DNA of 64,000 nucleotides from Ignavibacteriota bacterium (GTDB taxonomy: Bacteria > Bacteroidota > Ignavibacteria > UBA10030), in contig CAVSHO010000010.1 of the NCBI GenBank assembly GCA_963727825.1, positions 64,001 to 128,000 on the forward strand. The letters are read 5' to 3'. The position numbers and the translations under genes are program-made. This document shows positions 2,362-13,241 of the stretch, in pieces; the stretch's first letter is position 1, and the number at the start of each line of letters is the position of its first letter. A model generated the notes under the pieces. The model saw nothing but the letters and a program-made list of their open reading frames with translations. It had not been told where the DNA came from and did no database searches.

Positions 2362-2434
2362 TGCCCCGTAGTGTAATTGGCAACACGCCTGACTCTGGAT
2401 CAGGAAAGTCTAGGTTCGACCCCTAGCGGGGCAG
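2362..2434 (+). tRNA. tRNA-Gln (anticodon CTG)
   Basis: Acceptor TGCCCCG/CGGGGCA, anticodon arm CCTGA-CT CTG GA-TCAGG, T-loop GTTCGAC. CCA not encoded. Confidence 0.95.
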
Positions 2435-2441
2435 CACACAT

Positions 2442-2491
2442 TTGCGAATTGCGGATTTTTAATTTCGAAATTGAAAATTTGAAATTCGCAA
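2442..2491. repeat. About 50-bp imperfect inverted repeat with 7-bp periodicity in the tRNA spacer
   Basis: TTGCGAATT...ATTTT-TAATTT-CG-AAATTG-AAAAT...AATTCGCAA. Confidence 0.7.
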
Positions 2492-2497
2492 TTTAAT

Positions 2498-2570
2498 GGC
2501 CTTATCGTCTAACGGTTTAGGACGTGACCCTCTCAAGGTCGAAATACGGGTTCGATTCCCGTTAAGGCTA
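2498..2570 (+). tRNA. tRNA-Glu (anticodon CTC)
   Basis: Acceptor GGCCTTA/TAAGGCT, anticodon arm TGACC-CT CTC AA-GGTCG, T-loop GTTCGAT. Confidence 0.95.
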
Positions 2571-2912
2571 CTTCATCAAATTGCACTCTTCACTTCAACC
2601 TAAACAGTTTTAAACGTGTTGCATTCAAAAAATTTCTTTAAGAAAACCTTCGGTGTTCCAATTGCATTGAGACTTTCCCAGGGTTAAACGCAAAGATCTA
2701 CCAATATTAACTATTTCTGCGTTTTTATTGAATATTCGGCATTTCTCACGATTCTGTGCTCTCAACAGATCAAATTCAACAGCTACTTTTTAGTATCAGG
2801 CTTTTCCATTAAAATATATTTTTTTATTATTTCTTAAATTTTATTTGCTCATTTCATCAAGAATCTATATTTTCCACCACGTTTTCTTAACATTATCTAA
2901 AAGTGACAAATT

Positions 2913-10105: not shown

Positions 10106-10684
10106 TTAGTGCATCTTCATTCGCTGGAAATAAGAATACGTAATTGTTGCTGCAGCAATGATCTTTACTCCATCCCACCATGAGAATATCAAAAATCCAG
10201 CTTGAAAAGAATTTATCCAGTTGTGAAGATAGAGAAAGTTCAGTTGAATAGTACCAAGAGAGAATATTATTAAGGACCCAACGATCATAGAAATCATCAT
10301 CCACCAGTATTCACTACGAAGTCTGGTAAGATAACCAATAACAAACGCTGCAATAGGGAATGAAAGAAGGTATCCGCCGGTTGGCCCCAATATTTTTGAC
10401 AATCCAAACGCACCGCCAGCAAAAATTGGCAAACCAATTGCACCAAGAGTTAAATAAATGCCCATGCTTATAGCACCACCTCGTTTTCCCAATAATGCGC
10501 CAGCTGATAGGACGAAAAATGTTTGCATTGTAAATGGTACTGGTTGGTTCGGTATTTCAATTTGCGCTCCGATTGCCACAAGAACGGCAAATGTGAATGC
10601 CCAGAAAGCTTGAATATATACTCTCTTATCCGGTAAGCTTAACACTTTTAAATTAGTCTGGTCTCGCATAGTGATCATTTTCAT
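10106..10684 (-). CDS. bioY: Biotin transporter S-component BioY
   Basis: PVPFTMQTF, GAIGLPIFAGG and GPTGGYLLSF motifs. Confidence 0.9.
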   Translation of the reverse strand: MKMITMRDQTNLKVLSLPDKRVYIQAFWAFTFAVLVAIGAQIEIPNQPVPFTMQTFFVLSAGALLGKRGGAISMGIYLTLGAIGLPIFAGGAFGLSKILGPTGGYLLSFPIAAFVIGYLTRLRSEYWWMMISMIVGSLIIFSLGTIQLNFLYLHNWINSFQAGFLIFSWWDGVKIIAAATITYSYFQRMKMH

Positions 10685-10762: not shown

Positions 10763-10791
10763 TTGACTTAGAGGTGTTTTTTCAATATATT
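10763..10791 (+). promoter_or_regulatory. Sigma70-type promoter of the tRNA-Gln-prs-rplY operon
   Basis: TTGACT-17 bp-TATATT. Confidence 0.6.
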
Positions 10792-10797
10792 TTTATT

Positions 10798-10823
10798 CCA
10801 ACTCTTCGGGAGTTGGTTTTTTT
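10798..10823 (+). terminator. Terminator-like hairpin with U-tract just downstream of the promoter
   Basis: CCAACTC-TTCGG-GAGTTGG followed by T7. Confidence 0.4.
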
Positions 10824-10844
10824 GTATAGTAGTCCCGTTGCTAT

Positions 10845-10897
10845 TGGGGTGTAGCCAAGCGGTAAGGCATCCCGCTTTGCGGGACACTCTCAGGTTT
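10845..10897 (+). pseudogene. tRNA-Gln-like copy A (3' truncated, anticodon arm replaced)
   Basis: First 25 nt identical to the real tRNA-Gln, then TCCCG-CTTTG-CGGGA, then CACTCTCAGGTT. Ends in the T-loop. Confidence 0.85.
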
Positions 10898-10913
10898 TGT
10901 ATCGAGAAATTAT

Positions 10914-10985
10914 TGGGGTGTAGCCAAGCGGTAAGGCAGCGGCCTTTGGAGCCGCCACTCCCAGGTTCGAATCCTGGCACCCCAG
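10914..10985 (+). tRNA. tRNA-Gln (anticodon TTG), the only intact copy of the array
   Basis: Acceptor TGGGGTG/CACCCCA, anticodon arm GCGGC-CT TTG GA-GCCGC, T arm CCAGG-TTCGAAT-CCTGG. Confidence 0.95.
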
Positions 10986-11003
10986 CAAGTTGATTGGAAG
11001 AAA

Positions 11004-11075
11004 ATGTTTTTTGTCTATGTTCTCAAAAGTCTAAATGGAAATTCAACCTTTAAGGAAATTATTGAGATGGATTAG
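11004..11075 (+). pseudogene. Internally deleted copy of the GIY-YIG nuclease gene
   Basis: MFFVYVLKSL|NGNSTFKEIIEMD* is the first 10 residues fused to the C-terminal residues of the ORF at 11173-11415. Confidence 0.85.
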
Positions 11076-11153
11076 GCGGTAAGGTATCCCGCTATGTGGG
11101 ACACCCCCAGGTTCTCCCGAAGGGACTCCTTCGGAGGAATCCTGGCACCCCAG
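11063..11153 (+). pseudogene. tRNA-Gln-like copy C (degenerate 5' end, replaced anticodon arm, 22-bp insertion in T-loop)
   Basis: GCGGTAAGG...TCCCGCTATGTGGGA-CACCCCCAGGTTC[TCCCGAAGGGACTCCTTCGGAG]GAATCCTGGCACCCCAG. Confidence 0.85.
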
Positions 11154-11172
11154 CAAGTTGATTGAGATAAAA

Positions 11173-11415
11173 ATGTTTTTTATCTATGTTCTCAAAAGTT
11201 TAAAAGACAATAGATTCTATATTGGACAAACGAACAATTTTTTATCACGCCTTCGCAGACATAACGAAGGAAGAGTACAATCGACGAAATATCGAGTTCC
11301 GCTTATACTCGTGTATTCGGAAAATTATGCGACACGAAGTGAAGCTATGGCAAGAGAGAGATACTTAAAGAATCTTAATGGAAATTCAACCTTTAAGGAA
11401 ATTATTGGGGTGTAG
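11173..11415 (+). CDS. Stand-alone GIY-YIG nuclease (small YhbQ/SLX1-like type, 80 aa)
   Basis: FIYVL...FYIGQT...RLRRHN...ARERYLK retains the Tyr, Gly, Arg, His and Glu motif residues. The last codons GGG GTG TAG are the 5' end of tRNA copy D. Confidence 0.9.
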   Translation: MFFIYVLKSLKDNRFYIGQTNNFLSRLRRHNEGRVQSTKYRVPLILVYSENYATRSEAMARERYLKNLNGNSTFKEIIGV

Positions 11416-11498
11416 TATAGGCGATAAGGCATCCCGCTTTGCGAGACACTCCCAGGTTCTCCCGAAGGGACTCCTCCGGAGGAATCCTGGCACCCCAG
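11406..11498 (+). pseudogene. tRNA-Gln-like copy D (altered D arm, replaced anticodon arm, 22-bp T-loop insertion)
   Basis: TGGGGTGTAG...TCCCGCTTTGCGAGA-CACTCCCAGGTTC[TCCCGAAGGGACTCCTCCGGAG]GAATCCTGGCACCCCAG. Confidence 0.85.
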
Positions 11499-11553
11499 CG
11501 TTGTTTTGTTCTATGGAAAGAAATAAAATGAAAATAATCGAAAAAGGAATTCA

Positions 11554-12498
11554 ATGAGCGAACTGAAGATTTTTTCGGGACGGGCAAATCGCCCATTAGC
11601 TGAACAAATCTGCAAAGAAGCAAATGTTCCTCTTGGAGAAGCCGCCATTCAAACATTTAGCGATGGCGAACTTTGGGTCAAATATATCGAGAACATCCGT
11701 GGTGACGATGTCTTTATTATTCAACCGACACAGCCGCCAGCAGAGAATTTGATGGAGTTATTGATTATGCTTGATGCTGCAAAACGTGCATCAGCAAAAC
11801 GTGTTACTGCAGTTATTCCTTATTTCGGATACGCGCGTCAGGATAGAAAAGATCAGCCTCGCGTAGCAATCAGCGCGAAATTAGTCGCAAATTTGATTAC
11901 GGAAGCTGGAGCTGATCGTGTGATAACAATGGATTTACATACAGCGCAAATCCAGGGATTCTTCGATATTCCCATGGATCATTTGTATTCATCGGCTGTA
12001 CTTATCGAGTGCTTCAAAAAAATGGATATTTCAAATCTTGCGGTTGCTTCTCCAGATGTTGGAAGCATTAAAATGGCACGTTCCTACGCCAAGCGGCTTG
12101 GTGCAGATTTGATTTTAATAGATAAGCGTCGTCCGAAACAAAATGAAGCAGAGATAATGAATATTATCGGTAACGTCGAAGGAAAGACTATACTTATTGT
12201 TGACGACTTGATCGATACCGGCGGAACATTCGTCAACGCAGCACGAGCATTGCGCAATAATGGCGCGAAGGAAATTTTCGGTGCCTGCACACATCCGGTC
12301 TTATCCGGCGACGCGTACCAAAAAATAGAGAATTCGGTCGTCAAGAAAGTCGTCGTTACCGATACGCTTCCATTAAAACAAACAAGTGATAAGATTCATA
12401 TTCGCTCTATAGCTCATGTATTTGCAGAAGCGATTCTTCGTACACACAGGAATGAATCTATCAGCTCACTATTTGATATTGATAAAGACAAGACTTAA
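11554..12498 (+). CDS. prs: Ribose-phosphate pyrophosphokinase
   Basis: FSDGE, PYFGYARQDRK, MDLH, DDLIDTGGT. Confidence 0.97.
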   Translation: MSELKIFSGRANRPLAEQICKEANVPLGEAAIQTFSDGELWVKYIENIRGDDVFIIQPTQPPAENLMELLIMLDAAKRASAKRVTAVIPYFGYARQDRKDQPRVAISAKLVANLITEAGADRVITMDLHTAQIQGFFDIPMDHLYSSAVLIECFKKMDISNLAVASPDVGSIKMARSYAKRLGADLILIDKRRPKQNEAEIMNIIGNVEGKTILIVDDLIDTGGTFVNAARALRNNGAKEIFGACTHPVLSGDAYQKIENSVVKKVVVTDTLPLKQTSDKIHIRSIAHVFAEAILRTHRNESISSLFDIDKDKT

Positions 12499-12512: not shown

Positions 12513-13241
12513 ATGTCTGAAATAACTTTAACTGCGGAAATTCGAAAAAATATCGGCAAACGTGTCCGCGCAATTCGTAAAACAGGTAAAGTGCCTGGAA
12601 TATATTATGGGCATGGACAGCAAAATATCCCTGTGTCACTGCCTGCACCAACACTCGCACCTTTGTATTCGACTTCAGAAATGCATGTTATCAACTTAAA
12701 ATTGGATGATGGCTCGTCTCACCTATGCGTTTTAAGAGATGTGCAAATTGATCCCGTTACTGAGAAACCTGTGCATTTCGATCTATTCGGCTTGAGCGAG
12801 AATGAAACACTCACTATCCAGATACCAGTAAAGCTGACGGGCGGCATTCCAAAGGGAGTTCGCGAAGGTGGAATCTTACAGCATGTTTTACACAAACTAG
12901 AAGTCTCATGCTTGCCAAAACACATACCTGATCACATAGAAATCAATGTCGAAGATCTGGCTATAAACCATTCTGTTCACGTGAAAGATTTAACTATTCC
13001 AAATGTTACAATTATGGAAAACGCAACGAGCACGATTGTTGCCGTCGTTCCGCCTGTGGTAGTGAAAGAACCAGAACCGATAACCGCCGTTGTACCGACT
13101 GCTGAAGCACTTGCCGAACCTGAAGTTATTTCCAAGGGCAAGAAACCCGAAGAAGGTGCCGAAGAGGTGGATGAGAAAAAGAAACCTGAAGAAAAGAAAA
13201 AAACTGAAGAAAAAAAGAAACCTGAAGAGAAGAAGAAGTAA
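12513..13241 (+). CDS. rplY: 50S ribosomal protein bL25 (Ctc/TL5 long form)
   Basis: GKVPGIYYG, HFDL, GVREGGILQ. Located between prs and pth. KKKPEE-type repeats at the C-terminus. Confidence 0.95.
   Translation: MSEITLTAEIRKNIGKRVRAIRKTGKVPGIYYGHGQQNIPVSLPAPTLAPLYSTSEMHVINLKLDDGSSHLCVLRDVQIDPVTEKPVHFDLFGLSENETLTIQIPVKLTGGIPKGVREGGILQHVLHKLEVSCLPKHIPDHIEINVEDLAINHSVHVKDLTIPNVTIMENATSTIVAVVPPVVVKEPEPITAVVPTAEALAEPEVISKGKKPEEGAEEVDEKKKPEEKKKTEEKKKPEEKKK

What the first reader, a model, noticed from the sequence alone, without database searches (positions are those of the whole stretch)
10845..11498. Tandem tRNA-Gln / GIY-YIG nuclease array: a minimal tRNA-embedded selfish or defence-like element
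Seen: four tRNA-Gln(TTG)-derived units (A 10845-10897, intact B 10914-10985, C 11063-11153, D 11406-11498) alternate with nuclease-derived sequence. B and C are each followed by the same spacer (CAAGTTGATTG..A.AAAATG) and a nuclease start. B, C and D are each preceded by GAAATTAT, the 3' end of the nuclease gene. The intact 80-aa GIY-YIG ORF has no stop of its own: its last codons GGG GTG TAG are tRNA nucleotides 2-10. No integrase or transposase is nearby. Established: small stand-alone GIY-YIG proteins (YhbQ/SLX1-like) are structure-selective nucleases, and tRNA-Gln upstream of prs is a conserved locus. Inference: the repeating unit is [tRNA + nuclease]. It borrows the tRNA promoter and stop codon and amplifies in tandem, possibly by nuclease-triggered recombination, while one functional tRNA is kept. 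I know of no description of this architecture, but I could not search the literature.
Basis: partly seen in the sequence, partly recalled or inferred. Interest (0 to 1): 0.88.

Follow-up and report, generated by a model that had tools for sequence, protein, structure and literature searches.

The report
Nuclease gene cassette nested in tRNA-Gln
A tiny nuclease gene, repeated together with broken, hairpin-carrying copies of a glutamine tRNA gene around the one working copy, is a member of a very widespread and apparently undescribed kind of selfish DNA cassette that lives in bacterial tRNA genes.

Summary
Window 10845-11499 holds one intact tRNA-Gln(TTG), three tRNA-Gln-like copies (psiA, psiC, psiD), one intact 80-aa GIY-YIG ORF and one internally deleted copy, between bioY and prs.

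It is not a one-off. In this genome 10 of 12 GIY-YIG matches lie within 400 nt of a tRNA gene on the same strand. The same holds for 60 of 80 loci from more than 20 phyla and for 27 of 29 loci from relatives.

Typical layout: intact tRNA, ORF, then a partial or whole copy of the same tRNA whose loops carry GC-rich hairpins. The ORF often ends on a stop codon inside the tRNA (15 of 39).

The orthologous Gln/prs locus in 17 relatives is empty, decayed or filled by a different lineage. Two relatives carry 14-unit and 7-unit tandem arrays at other tRNAs.

Best reading: a selfish, homing-like nuclease cassette using the tRNA gene as target, promoter and homology. The mechanism is inferred, not shown. 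Four literature searches found no description. Earlier notes of this scan reported the same theme on other DNA.

The parts
10763..10791 (+). Promoter-like site TTGACT-17-TATATT upstream of the array; probable native tRNA-Gln promoter that would also drive the cassette
   Evidence: 10 of 12 consensus positions; the sequence is conserved in same-genus loci. Function is inferred.
10798..10823 (+). Terminator-like hairpin plus T run between the promoter-like site and the first tRNA-like copy (context; role unknown)
   Evidence: conserved in relatives
10845..10897 (+). psiA: 5' part of a tRNA-Gln copy. It abuts the ancestral left flank, its anticodon arm is replaced by the hairpin TCCCGC-TTT-GCGGGA (10870-10884), and it is cut off in the T loop after GGTT
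   Evidence: The left flank matches the empty-site relatives. The homologous copy in L015 aligns with score 41 against a shuffle maximum of 13.
10898..10913 (+). Junction holding a relic of an ORF 3' end (GAAATTAT at 10906-10913): remains of a deleted cassette ORF between psiA and the intact tRNA
   Evidence: the same junction is in L015
10914..10986 (+). Intact tRNA-Gln(TTG), the only functional copy. It lies inside the array and is flanked by cassette sequence on both sides
   Evidence: ARAGORN; Rfam 65.1 bits; same sequence as the single tRNA-Gln of empty-site relatives such as L014
10987..11003 (+). Spacer 1 (17 nt) between the tRNA 3' end and the ATG of the truncated ORF
   Evidence: repeat family D3
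11004..11075 (+). Truncated GIY-YIG ORF (23 codons plus TAG): in-frame internal deletion of about residues 11-69. Its stop lies in psiC
   Evidence: families D2, D4; reading frame worked out
11063..11154 (+). psiC: full-length tRNA-Gln-like copy with a degenerate 5' end, an anticodon arm replaced by a hairpin (11087-11101), and a 23-nt double mini-hairpin inserted in the T loop (11115-11137)
   Evidence: not called as tRNA
11155..11172 (+). Spacer 2 (18 nt) between psiC and the ATG of the intact ORF
11173..11415 (+). Intact single-domain GIY-YIG nuclease ORF, 80 aa. The stop TAG (11413-11415) is nt 8-10 of psiD
   Evidence: Pfam PF01541 E=2e-16, covering residues 1-71. Y5, Y16, G18, R26, H30 and E62 are invariant among 8 cassette proteins. 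Nearest solved structures are the UPF0213 proteins 1ywl (E=1.2e-5) and 1zg2.
11406..11499 (+). psiD: full-length tRNA-Gln-like copy abutting the ancestral right flank. Anticodon-arm hairpin at 11432-11446 (one mismatch) and a 23-nt T-loop insert at 11460-11482
   Evidence: The right flank matches the empty-site relatives. Contigs of relatives join GGTTC directly to 11482 onward (loose ends).

Best explanation
The region is a decaying tandem array of a small selfish cassette that lives in tRNA genes. A cassette has three parts: (1) a roughly 80-aa single-domain GIY-YIG nuclease gene, (2) a partial or whole copy of the host tRNA gene (psi-tRNA) whose loops or anticodon arm carry GC-rich hairpin modules, and (3) an adjoining intact tRNA.

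Proposed working, with the status of each step:
- The ORF has no room for signals of its own. It starts 1-26 nt after a tRNA 3' end, or ends inside a tRNA 5' end, so it is read as part of the tRNA precursor transcript. This is inferred.
- The nuclease breaks a cognate, unoccupied tRNA gene, probably at or near a conserved loop such as the T loop. This is inferred by analogy with T4 SegB.
- The break is repaired by copying from an occupied allele. The tRNA sequence on both sides of the ORF serves as portable homology. The result is always one whole tRNA plus a second, disabled copy. This is inferred; the end products are shown.
- Unequal recombination between the tRNA and psi-tRNA repeats, or repeated invasion of the still-intact copy, builds tandem arrays. 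The arrays are shown; the cause is inferred.
- Deletions and point mutations then erode the ORFs. This is shown.

In the window the order is psiA, relic of a deleted ORF, intact tRNA, truncated ORF, psiC, intact ORF, psiD.
For: (1) Association with tRNA genes. In the own genome, 10 of 12 matches lie 2-397 nt from a tRNA, all 10 on the same strand. Across phyla, 60 of 80 loci have a tRNA within 300 nt, all 60 on the same strand, covering 16 amino-acid types. Among relatives, 27 of 29 loci do; the two misses are one locus on a short contig with little flank and one in mid-array.

(2) Duplicates. The far side of the ORF holds an exact copy of at least 12 nt of the neighbouring tRNA in 38 of 58 loci (at least 15 nt in 33 of 58).

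(3) Presence and absence at one orthologous locus. Of 17 relatives' bioY/tRNA-Gln/prs loci, 8 show no trace, 3-4 have only a decayed upstream psi remnant, 4 have remnants on both sides, and 1 has a full ORF of a different lineage (60% aa identity, different spacer). In the window, the outermost copies psiA and psiD abut the ancestral flanks.

(4) Nuclease lineages follow tRNA identity. There are 31 changes of tRNA type on a tree of 87 proteins, against a minimum of 43 in 300 label shuffles. A Leu(CAA) clade has SH-aLRT support 98.

(5) The psi copies are conserved element parts. The psi-tRNA-Gln anticodon arm is replaced by a YCCCG...CGGGR hairpin (stem 6-10, loop 2-4) in Ignavibacteriota, several CPR phyla and Bdellovibrionota, and the distal stem changes in a compensatory way.

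(6) T-loop link. The intact neighbour tRNA has the motif RGTTCRANYCY in 59 of 63 loci, while the psi region has it in 10 of 63 (7 of 24 where psi lies downstream of the ORF). SegB, a GIY-YIG homing endonuclease in the T4 tRNA cluster, recognises GGTTCRANTCC (PMC2330249; abstract and passages read).

(7) Arrays: 14.1 and 7.2 units at 99% match in two relatives.

(8) ORF integrity. About 138 of the 150 listed matches in relatives have no internal stop (my count from the table). The catalytic-type residues are invariant.

(9) Compactness. The stop codon lies inside the tRNA in 15 of 39 loci. Where an ATG could be placed (20 of 21 loci with an upstream tRNA), it lies 1-26 nt after the tRNA 3' end in 11.

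(10) One RNA-library contig of a relative runs from the tRNA-Gln 3' end into an MFFV-type ORF start. This is a weak hint, because DNA carry-over is possible.
Against: - No cleavage, homing or transcription has been shown for any member.
- The occupied allele keeps an intact, presumably cleavable tRNA, so immunity is unexplained. T4 likewise keeps at least five SegB sites.
- The protein is only the catalytic domain (Pfam covers residues 1-71 of 80) and lacks the DNA-binding domain that gives Seg/I-TevI enzymes their specificity.
- Some psi copies are too short (10-20 nt arms split by hairpins) to act as recombination arms.
- 10 of 63 psi regions keep an intact T-loop motif, including the 14-unit array.
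- The T stems of the psi copies match the local host tRNA. Simple copying from a foreign donor does not predict this unless later gene conversion is assumed.
- 20 of 80 cross-phylum loci have no tRNA within 300 nt. I did not inspect these individually.
- The tree rests on 78 columns and is poorly resolved (42 of 84 inner branches open), and related hosts share labels.
- The sample was drawn with two peptide patterns from Gln/Leu cassettes and ranked by likeness to them, so it is biased.
Confidence: 0.55

Rival explanations
1. Hairpin-directed single-strand element (Ssn-like). The nuclease is a site-specific ssDNA nuclease that recognises the GC-rich hairpins, as SsnA recognises NTS/SRM. Hairpins and ORF would spread by cuts in single-stranded DNA, with the loops of folded tDNA strands as preferred landing sites, rather than by double-strand-break homing.
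For: - The Ssn family consists of single-domain GIY-YIG proteins of about 94 aa whose genes are flanked by hairpin repeats, and the authors note an IS-like NTS-ssnA-NTS layout (PMC11893778; sections 10 and 12 read in full).
- The own genome holds 76 perfect YCCCG..CGGGR hairpins against 2-8 in five Markov-simulated genomes. Fifteen of the 76 lie within 600 nt of a tRNA, a zone covering 1.9% of the genome.
- The own genome has a 28 of 28 match to the published NTS consensus and 9 more matches with 6 or fewer mismatches. One lies next to a second, non-tRNA type of GIY-YIG gene.
- Hairpin modules sit at the D loop, anticodon arm and T loop of psi copies. Of 133 unfiltered insertions of at least 8 nt: 29 T loop, 24 D loop, 15 anticodon loop, 23 anticodon stem, 30 D-stem/anticodon-stem junction or variable region, 12 other.
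- T-loop and D-loop hairpins differ between close relatives, so they were acquired secondarily.
Against: - The published SRM search pattern is found beside 0 of 10 own tRNA-linked ORFs and 1 of 70 cross-phylum loci, against a background of 3 of 2000.
- A GIY-YIG hydrolase has no known strand-transfer chemistry.
- Identity to the own genome's NTS-flanked GIY-YIG genes is only 31-35%.
- Membership of cd10448 could not be tested.
- The paper's main text never mentions tRNA (0 occurrences). Its supplements were not seen.
Confidence: 0.2
2. Domesticated, host-serving system. The nuclease with its decoy tRNA copies would protect tRNA genes (favoured integration sites of phages and islands), or would control recombination or transformation at these loci. 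That makes it a defence-like function rather than a parasite.
For: - Matches occur in 40 of 41 relatives, at 1-21 per genome.
- Most ORFs are intact.
- There is a weak PADLOC hit to the candidate family PDC-S14 (E=2.5e-5, partial).
- SsnA modulates transformation in Neisseria.
Against: - The orthologous locus is empty in 8 of 17 relatives and decayed in 7-8.
- There are pseudogenes in the own genome (C13 and C1, each with an internal TGA).
- Copy number varies strongly and there are runaway arrays.
- Lineages turn over at the same site.
- No partner genes are present.
- PADLOC hits are far from full length.
- There are only 4 weak phage hits.
Confidence: 0.12
3. Passive tRNA-linked repeats. 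Unequal recombination or replication slippage at tRNA genes makes partial duplicates, as in the tRNA-linked repeats of E. coli (recalled). The small ORF is then a passenger without any activity on tRNA genes.
For: - Partial tRNA 3' duplicates without an ORF also occur beside cassettes. Examples are L144 downstream of tRNA-Val, and the control side of the tRNA, which has a copy of at least 12 nt in 15 of 55 loci.
- Known sources of tRNA fragments are integration events and CRISPR activity (bioRxiv 10.1101/2022.07.05.498093; passages read).
Against: - This does not explain why one nuclease family sits beside tRNAs of 16 types in more than 20 phyla, always on the same strand.
- It does not explain why nuclease lineages follow tRNA type.
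- It does not explain why the same hairpin replaces the anticodon arm across phyla.
Confidence: 0.08
4. Assembly artefact: the array is a mis-join of reads from strains with and without the cassette in a metagenome-assembled genome.
For: - The genome is a 14-contig assembly with 6.55% estimated contamination.
Against: - The units differ by 9-14%, so they would not collapse or mis-join as identical repeats.
- L015 (another species) has the same psiA / intact tRNA / ORF remnant / psi order. L033 (another genus) has a two-unit array at the same locus.
- The flanks are collinear with those of relatives.
Confidence: 0.02

Closest known systems
Phage T4 SegB, a GIY-YIG homing endonuclease in the T4 tRNA gene cluster (PMC2330249; abstract and passages read)
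   Same: - GIY-YIG nuclease gene sitting among tRNA genes.
- Its recognition site contains the conserved T-loop motif GGTTCRANTCC.
- Relatives lack the gene at the same place.
- It spreads its own gene together with adjoining tRNA genes.
- The carrier genome keeps cleavable sites.
   Different: - SegB is a phage protein with a C-terminal DNA-binding part (NUMOD3, per the paper). The protein here has 80 aa, all catalytic domain.
- No hairpin modules or disabled tRNA copies are described for SegB.
- The cassette here is chromosomal, about 300 nt long, found in more than 20 bacterial phyla, and forms tandem arrays.
Ssn nucleases with NTS/SRM hairpin repeats (Chenal et al. 2025, PMC11893778; abstract, sections 10 and 12, and passages read; supplements not seen)
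   Same: - Single-domain GIY-YIG proteins of 80-100 aa.
- Genes accompanied by GC-rich hairpin repeats.
- IS-like layout.
- The TCCCGC...GCGGGA stem core of the psi-tRNA-Gln hairpin also occurs in the NTS consensus.
- This genome holds true NTS-like repeats as well.
   Different: - The published SRM pattern is not found next to the tRNA-linked genes.
- The paper's main text has no mention of tRNA.
- Here the hairpins are embedded in copies of a tRNA gene.
- cd10448 membership is untested.
- Only 31-35% identity to the NTS-flanked GIY-YIG genes of the same genome.
Integrase-borne islands and prophages in tRNA genes, which leave one whole and one partial tRNA copy (bioRxiv 10.1101/2022.07.05.498093; passages read)
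   Same: - The target is a tRNA gene.
[quoted passage not shown]
- The tRNA stays functional.
   Different: - No integrase is present.
- The insert is about 260-300 nt, not 9-120 kb.
- The partial copy carries hairpin insertions.
- The partial copy may be a 5' part, a 3' part or full length.
tRNA-linked repeats of E. coli tRNA operons (recalled, and named in an earlier scan note; not read here)
   Same: Short duplicates of tRNA 3' ends directly downstream of tRNA genes, sometimes tandem.
   Different: No nuclease gene, no hairpin modules, and no cross-phylum cassette.
UPF0213 proteins EF2693 and BH0048 (PDB 1ywl, 1zg2) and SLX1
   Same: Closest solved sequences: E=1.2e-5 and 4.6e-4 over residues 3-70. 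They share the small GIY-YIG core.
   Different: They are structural-genomics proteins with no link to tRNA genes in the PDB record names. SLX1 is a eukaryotic multi-domain enzyme.

Membership tests
GIY-YIG nuclease superfamily (Pfam PF01541) | Match to the family profile above the curated cut-off | tested here: met
   60.5 bits against a cut-off of 22.6, E=2e-16, residues 1-71
GIY-YIG nuclease superfamily (Pfam PF01541) | Conserved GIY and YIG tyrosines, and Arg, His and Glu of the active site (the roles are recalled) | tested here: met
   Y5, Y16, G18, R26, H30 and E62 are invariant in 8 cassette proteins
Ssn site-specific ssDNA nucleases (cd10448) | Single-domain protein of about 80-100 aa | tested here: met
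   80 aa, with the domain covering residues 1-71; the paper gives 94 aa for SsnA
Ssn site-specific ssDNA nucleases (cd10448) | Gene flanked by SRM repeats as defined by the published search pattern | tested here: not met
   0 of 10 own tRNA-linked loci and 1 of 70 cross-phylum loci have a match within 500 nt, against a background of 3 of 2000. The pattern is strict: it also missed the NTS-like repeats beside the two non-tRNA genes.
Ssn site-specific ssDNA nucleases (cd10448) | Placement in the cd10448 clade | not testable with these tools
   No CDD search is available. NCBIfam gave only a sub-threshold hit to TIGR01453 (20.8 bits against 56.05).
Ssn site-specific ssDNA nucleases (cd10448) | Cuts only single-stranded DNA next to its hairpin | not testable with these tools
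   This needs an enzyme assay
Free-standing GIY-YIG homing endonucleases (Seg type) | Separate DNA-binding domain joined to the catalytic domain | tested here: not met
   80 aa with no second domain. The best 150 relatives are mostly 79-140 aa.
Free-standing GIY-YIG homing endonucleases (Seg type) | Gene present or absent at the same site among related genomes | tested here: met
   Of 17 relatives' Gln/prs loci: 8 with no trace, 7-8 decayed, 1 filled by another lineage
Free-standing GIY-YIG homing endonucleases (Seg type) | Cleaves the unoccupied allele, and repair copies the gene | not testable with these tools
   This needs cleavage and conversion assays
Free-standing GIY-YIG homing endonucleases (Seg type) | Occupied allele lacks the recognition site | tested here: inconclusive
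   The psi copies lack an intact T-loop motif in 53 of 63 loci, but the adjoining intact tRNA keeps it in 59 of 63. The true site is unknown.
Integrase-mediated tRNA-targeting islands | Tyrosine or serine recombinase gene within the inserted DNA | tested here: not met
   The insert holds only the 80-aa ORF. The neighbours are Fer4, DUF362, BioY, Prs, L25 and Pth.
tRNA (Rfam RF00005), applied to copies A, C and D | Score at or above the gathering threshold, or an ARAGORN call | tested here: not met
   Only 10914-10985 is reported, even at E up to 10. ARAGORN finds one gene in the array. ARAGORN does call two homologous psi copies in relatives as 'Lys ttt' and 'Thr tgt'.

The most novel reading that the evidence does not exclude
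A nuclease-only mobile element class has gone unrecognised. It is an approximately 300-nt cassette of one 80-aa GIY-YIG gene plus hairpin modules, which uses tRNA genes at once as target, promoter, stop codon and portable homology arms. It always rebuilds one working tRNA while disabling the other copy at its loops, and it has spread through tRNA genes of most bacterial phyla. A profile of 8 cassette proteins finds 8,670 representative clusters at E<=1e-10, though that profile also reaches other small GIY-YIG proteins. If the nuclease is Ssn-like, folded single-stranded tRNA genes would be its natural substrate. That would link Ssn enzymes, palindromic repeat spread and tRNA gene evolution.
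Probability: 0.4. Interest if true: 0.85.

Novelty: new variant of a known kind. Interest (0 to 1): 0.75.

Why it matters
- tRNA genes are treated as stable landmarks and as integrase targets. A nuclease-only cassette that nests in them across many phyla would be a new route of tRNA gene turnover, duplication and horizontal replacement.
- It explains many 'GIY-YIG nuclease family protein' mini-genes, whose gene calls are often run on into the tRNA: many relatives have 20-60 extra N-terminal residues.
- It explains spurious extra tRNA calls. ARAGORN labelled psi copies 'Lys ttt' and 'Thr tgt'.
- It offers natural, very small nucleases with apparent specificity for individual tRNA genes or for hairpins, of the kind now sought as ssDNA tools (PMC11893778).
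- It gives a concrete, testable system for how palindromic repeats get into structured RNA genes.

Tried and rejected
- Reads. The look-up of sequencing runs found no run with more than 13% of the sampled words. Laying four runs showed only relatives: the tRNA itself, empty-site joints (skip of 69 nt, 10841 to 10911, in X1 and X16) and flanks with 10-18 differences. Neither the assembly nor transcription in this organism could be tested.
- Rfam at E up to 10 gave no family for psiA, psiC, psiD or the hairpins.
- NCBIfam gave only a sub-threshold group I intron endonuclease hit. PADLOC gave weak partial PDC-S14 hits. I do not file the protein under either.
- Phages. Only 4 records matched, at 37-39% identity, so there is no sign that phages carry this cassette.
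- The published SRM pattern gave essentially no matches.
- A generic census of adjacent double hairpins was swamped by chance matches in AT-rich DNA and is not used. The 20-nt palindrome found in psi-tRNA-Leu has 8 copies in the genome, 6 of them away from tRNAs.
- Cross-phylum near-identity as evidence for recent transfer was rejected for L057/L082, whose flanks are also 89% identical, so they are related organisms with different labels. L035/L036 share 91.6% over only the 419-nt cassette plus tRNA, with no alignable downstream flank. That is suggestive, but L035 starts at a contig end.
- The search for related loci with the 8-protein alignment failed for lack of conserved stretches. A 3-protein alignment was used instead, which biases the sample towards Gln- and Leu-type cassettes.
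- Two of the 20 loci returned (L030, L032) were dropped from the locus comparison, because the prs start could not be placed.
- Structure prediction, complex prediction and the protein atlas were not used.
Full report
WHAT IS THERE

The sequence between bioY (10106-10684, minus strand, PF02632) and prs (11554-12498, PF13793/PF14572) reads, in order:

- A promoter-like site TTGACT-17-TATATT (10763-10791) and a terminator-like hairpin (10798-10816 plus a T run).
- psiA (10845-10897).
- A 16-nt junction ending in GAAATTAT.
- The intact tRNA-Gln(TTG) (10914-10986; ARAGORN; Rfam 65.1 bits).
- A 17-nt spacer.
- A 23-codon ORF (11004-11075). It is an in-frame internal deletion of the nuclease gene.
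- psiC (11063-11154).
- An 18-nt spacer.
- The intact 80-aa ORF (11173-11412, stop at 11413-11415).
- psiD (11406-11499).
- 54 nt further on, prs.

The repeat finder confirms the repeat families. The two units are 86-91% alike, so the array is not a recent duplication.

The ORF is a GIY-YIG domain and nothing else (PF01541, E=2e-16, residues 1-71). Its closest solved relatives are the UPF0213 proteins 1ywl and 1zg2, followed by SLX1.

psiA, psiC and psiD are not called as tRNAs. In all three the anticodon arm is replaced by a short GC hairpin, TCCCGC-N3-GCGGGA with 0-1 mismatch. In psiC and psiD a 23-nt insert sits in the T loop directly after GGTTC.

IT IS ONE CASE OF A GENOME-WIDE AND PHYLUM-WIDE PATTERN

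In the window's own genome (3.12 Mb, 14 contigs, 45 tRNA genes by ARAGORN), tblastn finds 12 matches to the ORF. Ten of them lie 2-397 nt from a tRNA gene on the same strand: Gln, Ser-GCT twice, Ser-GGA, Leu-CAA, Leu-CAG twice in tandem, Asp, Pro-CGG and Pro-GGG. tRNA genes with 400-nt flanks cover about 1.3% of the genome.

Reading these loci shows the same plan each time. Either an intact tRNA is followed within 1-20 nt by the ATG, then the ORF, then a partial copy of the 3' part of that same tRNA. Or a partial 5' copy comes first, then the ORF, then the intact tRNA. The partial copy is interrupted by hairpins. Two copies are pseudogenes (an internal TGA). The two matches away from tRNAs belong to another subfamily with different flanking repeats.

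A scan of one genome per species with a 3-protein alignment returned 80 loci from more than 20 phyla. These include Ignavibacteriota, Bacteroidota, many CPR phyla, Elusimicrobiota, Bdellovibrionota, Zixibacteria, Chloroflexota, Omnitrophota, Planctomycetota and Pseudomonadota. The closest named loci are Ignavibacteriaceae genomes, so the window is probably from that group (inference).

Sixty of the 80 loci have a tRNA within 300 nt, and all 60 are on the ORF's strand. The tRNA is downstream in 33, upstream in 21 and overlapping in 6; they cover 16 amino-acid types. I did not inspect the 20 misses one by one.

In 38 of 58 loci the far side of the ORF holds an exact copy of at least 12 nt of the neighbouring tRNA. 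On the control side, beyond the tRNA, this holds for 15 of 55, which shows that extra fragments also lie there.

An independent sample came from a profile search of 40 relatives of the same order. Forty of the 41 genomes scored (G000 included) have matches, at 1-21 each. Twenty-seven of the 29 best loci have a same-strand tRNA within 300 nt; the two misses are one locus on a short contig with little flank and one in the middle of an array.

A profile of 8 cassette proteins finds 27,916 representative clusters at E<=0.001 and 8,670 at E<=1e-10 among 1.84 billion representatives. This profile surely also reaches other small GIY-YIG proteins, so it gives only an upper bound for the cassette family.

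THE BORROWED STOP CODON

Among 39 loci with the tRNA downstream, the ORF's stop codon lies inside the intact tRNA in 15. In 8 of these its last base is tRNA position 10, which is the arrangement seen in the window on psiD. Among 20 loci with the tRNA upstream and a placeable ATG, 11 start 1-26 nt after the tRNA 3' end.

There is therefore no room for a separate promoter or terminator. Co-transcription with the tRNA is the natural inference. It is supported only weakly, by one 321-nt contig from an RNA library of a relative that runs from the tRNA-Gln 3' end into an ORF beginning ATGTTCTTTGTT. DNA carry-over cannot be excluded.

HISTORY OF THIS LOCUS

Twenty loci were returned for the bioY-prs stretch. 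Two (L030, L032) could not be anchored and were dropped. All 18 that were read, the own locus and 17 relatives', have tRNA-Gln(TTG) upstream of prs.

The 17 relatives fall into four groups:

- Eight show no trace of a cassette (L014, L016, L018, L019, L025, L028, L029, L031). Here the ancestral flanks touch the single tRNA.
- Three to four have only a decayed remnant of an upstream psi copy (L023, L024, L026; L021 borderline).
- Four have remnants on both sides. L015 has psiA with an extra D-loop hairpin, the intact tRNA, an ORF stump, and a psi copy that ARAGORN calls 'Lys ttt'. L020 has an ORF stump and a psi copy called 'Thr tgt'. L022 and L027 have only the spacer and a psi copy with other T-loop hairpins.
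- One (L017) has a full ORF of a different lineage, with 60% aa identity, another spacer and a strongly diverged psi copy.

In the window the outer ends of psiA and psiD touch exactly the ancestral left and right flanks, and the working tRNA is internal. T-loop and D-loop hairpins differ between close relatives, so they were added after the cassette arrived. The locus has thus been occupied, eroded and re-occupied within one genus.

TANDEM AMPLIFICATION

Two relatives with few contigs hold large, nearly uniform arrays:

- G002 has 14.1 units of 299 nt at 99% match. Each unit is a psi-tRNA-Pro with a replaced anticodon arm plus the ORF, and the array runs to the contig end.
- G019 has 7.2 units of 305 nt at 99% match. 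Each unit is a psi-tRNA-Val 5' part with a TCCCGAT-TTC-ATCGGGA hairpin in the anticodon loop plus the ORF. The array is followed by the intact tRNA-Val and three further 3' copies, the last of which has a T-loop insert.

The window's array is a small, old version of the same process.

THE PSI COPIES ARE PARTS OF THE ELEMENT

psi-tRNA-Gln copies from Ignavibacteriota, several CPR phyla and Bdellovibrionota all have the anticodon arm replaced by a YCCCG...CGGGR hairpin with a stem of 6-10 bp and a loop of 2-4 nt. The distal stem differs in a compensatory way (GCC/GGC, GAT/ATC, TCAGC/GCTGA). The true tRNA-Gln anticodon stems of the same hosts are all different, while the T stems of the psi copies match the local tRNA.

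A local-alignment survey of all loci found 133 insertions of at least 8 nt in tRNA-like copies. It is unfiltered and includes some alignments between neighbouring true tRNAs. The insertions fall as follows: 29 in the T loop, 24 in the D loop, 15 in the anticodon loop, 23 in the anticodon stem, 30 at the D-stem/anticodon-stem junction or variable region, and 12 elsewhere. Recurrent modules are a 22-nt pair of mini-hairpins, a 30-nt pair of 6-bp hairpins, a 20-nt palindrome and single TCCCG hairpins.

The same hairpin kinds are dispersed in the own genome. There are 76 perfect YCCCG..CGGGR hairpins against 2-8 in simulations, and 15 of them lie near tRNAs.

COMPARISON WITH KNOWN SYSTEMS

T4 SegB is a GIY-YIG homing endonuclease in a tRNA gene cluster. 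Its site contains GGTTCRANTCC, the T-loop motif. T4 relatives lack the gene, and T4 itself keeps at least five sites (abstract and passages). Here the intact neighbour tRNA carries RGTTCRANYCY in 59 of 63 loci, while the psi region carries it in only 10 of 63 (7 of 24 where psi lies downstream of the ORF and should include the T arm). This fits a T-loop-directed nuclease whose second target copy is disabled. It would equally fit selection to kill the extra tRNA or to break up homology. The protein lacks SegB's DNA-binding part.

Ssn nucleases are single-domain GIY-YIG proteins flanked by hairpin repeats that cut only ssDNA (sections 10 and 12 read). The own genome has a perfect match to the published NTS consensus and nine near matches, one beside a non-tRNA GIY-YIG gene. 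However, the published SRM pattern is not found beside the tRNA-linked genes. cd10448 membership could not be tested, and the paper's main text does not mention tRNA.

Integrase islands also leave whole plus partial tRNA copies, but no recombinase is present here.

TARGET SPECIFICITY

On a tree of 87 cassette proteins (78 columns, poorly resolved), tRNA type changes 31 times, against a minimum of 43 and a mean of 47 in 300 label shuffles. A Leu(CAA) clade has SH-aLRT support 98 and a Gly(UCC) pair has 100. Related hosts share labels and the sample is biased, so this is suggestive, not proof. One row (L062) was left out for an internal stop.

MECHANISM AND ODDS

I commit to a homing-like selfish cassette (0.55) with these features:

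- It is transcribed with the tRNA.
- The nuclease breaks an unoccupied cognate tRNA gene.
- Repair copies the ORF, using the tRNA sequence on both sides as homology. This necessarily yields two tRNA copies, one kept whole by selection and the other disabled.
- Arrays arise by unequal exchange or by re-invasion of the intact copy.

What is shown: the architecture, its recurrence, presence/absence and turnover, the arrays, the decay, and the conservation of the hairpin-bearing psi copies. What is inferred: cleavage, target site, repair route and transcription.

The rivals are an Ssn-like ssDNA/hairpin transposition (0.2), a domesticated protective function (0.12), passive tRNA-linked repeats (0.08) and an assembly artefact (0.02).

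NOVELTY

Four full-text searches returned no paper describing small GIY-YIG genes nested with partial tRNA copies:

- GIY-YIG with tRNA gene, mobile and Bacteroidetes.
- GIY-YIG with pseudo-, partial- or fragment-tRNA terms.
- GIY-YIG with tRNA and CPR, Ignavibacteria or homing.
- UPF0213, YhbQ, COG2827, cd10448 or cd10456.

The nearest results are the SegB and Ssn papers and a study of rRNA-gene insertions in CPR (PMC11270868; search listing only, which shows 0 occurrences of 'tRNA'). Subscription-only literature is not covered.

Earlier notes of this scan report the same theme in more than 100 other genomes, mostly CPR. I re-tested the core claims here on independent data. I rate the finding as a new variant of a known kind (GIY-YIG selfish nuclease genes), with an undescribed architecture.

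Noticed in passing
window 10763-10823: A promoter-like site (TTGACT-17-TATATT) is followed 6 nt later by a terminator-like hairpin with a T run, directly upstream of the tRNA-Gln locus. It is conserved in same-genus relatives, including those without a cassette. It may be a leader or attenuator of the tRNA-Gln/prs unit, or a small RNA.
   Followed up: partly
own genome G000:C14:46550 and G000:C7:171145 (outside the window): There is a 28 of 28 match to the Neisseria NTS consensus of Chenal et al. 2025 in this probable Ignavibacteria genome, plus 9 further matches with 6 or fewer mismatches. One lies just upstream of a second, non-tRNA type of GIY-YIG gene (C7:171193). This looks like a genuine Ssn/NTS-like system far from Neisseria.
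   Followed up: partly
L143 (G002:C2:364300-369156) and L144 (G019:C9:1491500-1495000): These are tandem arrays of 14.1 units (299 nt) and 7.2 units (305 nt) of [psi-tRNA + GIY-YIG ORF] at 99% identity, at tRNA-Pro and tRNA-Val of two relatives. The first runs to a contig end, so its true length is unknown.
   Followed up: partly
L015 and L020 (relatives G005, G008), upstream of prs: ARAGORN calls the hairpin-bearing psi-tRNA-Gln copies 'tRNA-Lys(ttt)' and 'tRNA-Thr(tgt)'. Such cassette copies can inflate tRNA gene counts in annotations.
   Followed up: no
window 2362-2571: tRNA-Gln(CTG) and tRNA-Glu(CTC) lie 62 nt apart, and no GIY-YIG match is listed there. Not every tRNA gene of the genome is occupied.
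   Followed up: no
window 12513-13241: Ribosomal protein L25/TL5 has a roughly 60-residue C-terminal tail rich in Lys, Glu and Pro (repeats of the PEEKKK type).
   Followed up: no
run X16, record 20, laid on window 10930-10988: A 321-nt contig from a metatranscriptome library of a relative continues from the tRNA-Gln 3' end into a spacer and an ORF start ATGTTCTTTGTT (MFFV), like the cassette of L017. This hints at a tRNA-ORF co-transcript.
   Followed up: no
own genome, e.g. G000:C9:74375-74457, C8:109386-109468, C1:104686-104737: There are clusters of two or three consecutive TCCCG...CGGGA hairpins about 20 nt apart, repeated at several places away from tRNAs. They form a BIME-like dispersed repeat family.
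   Followed up: no
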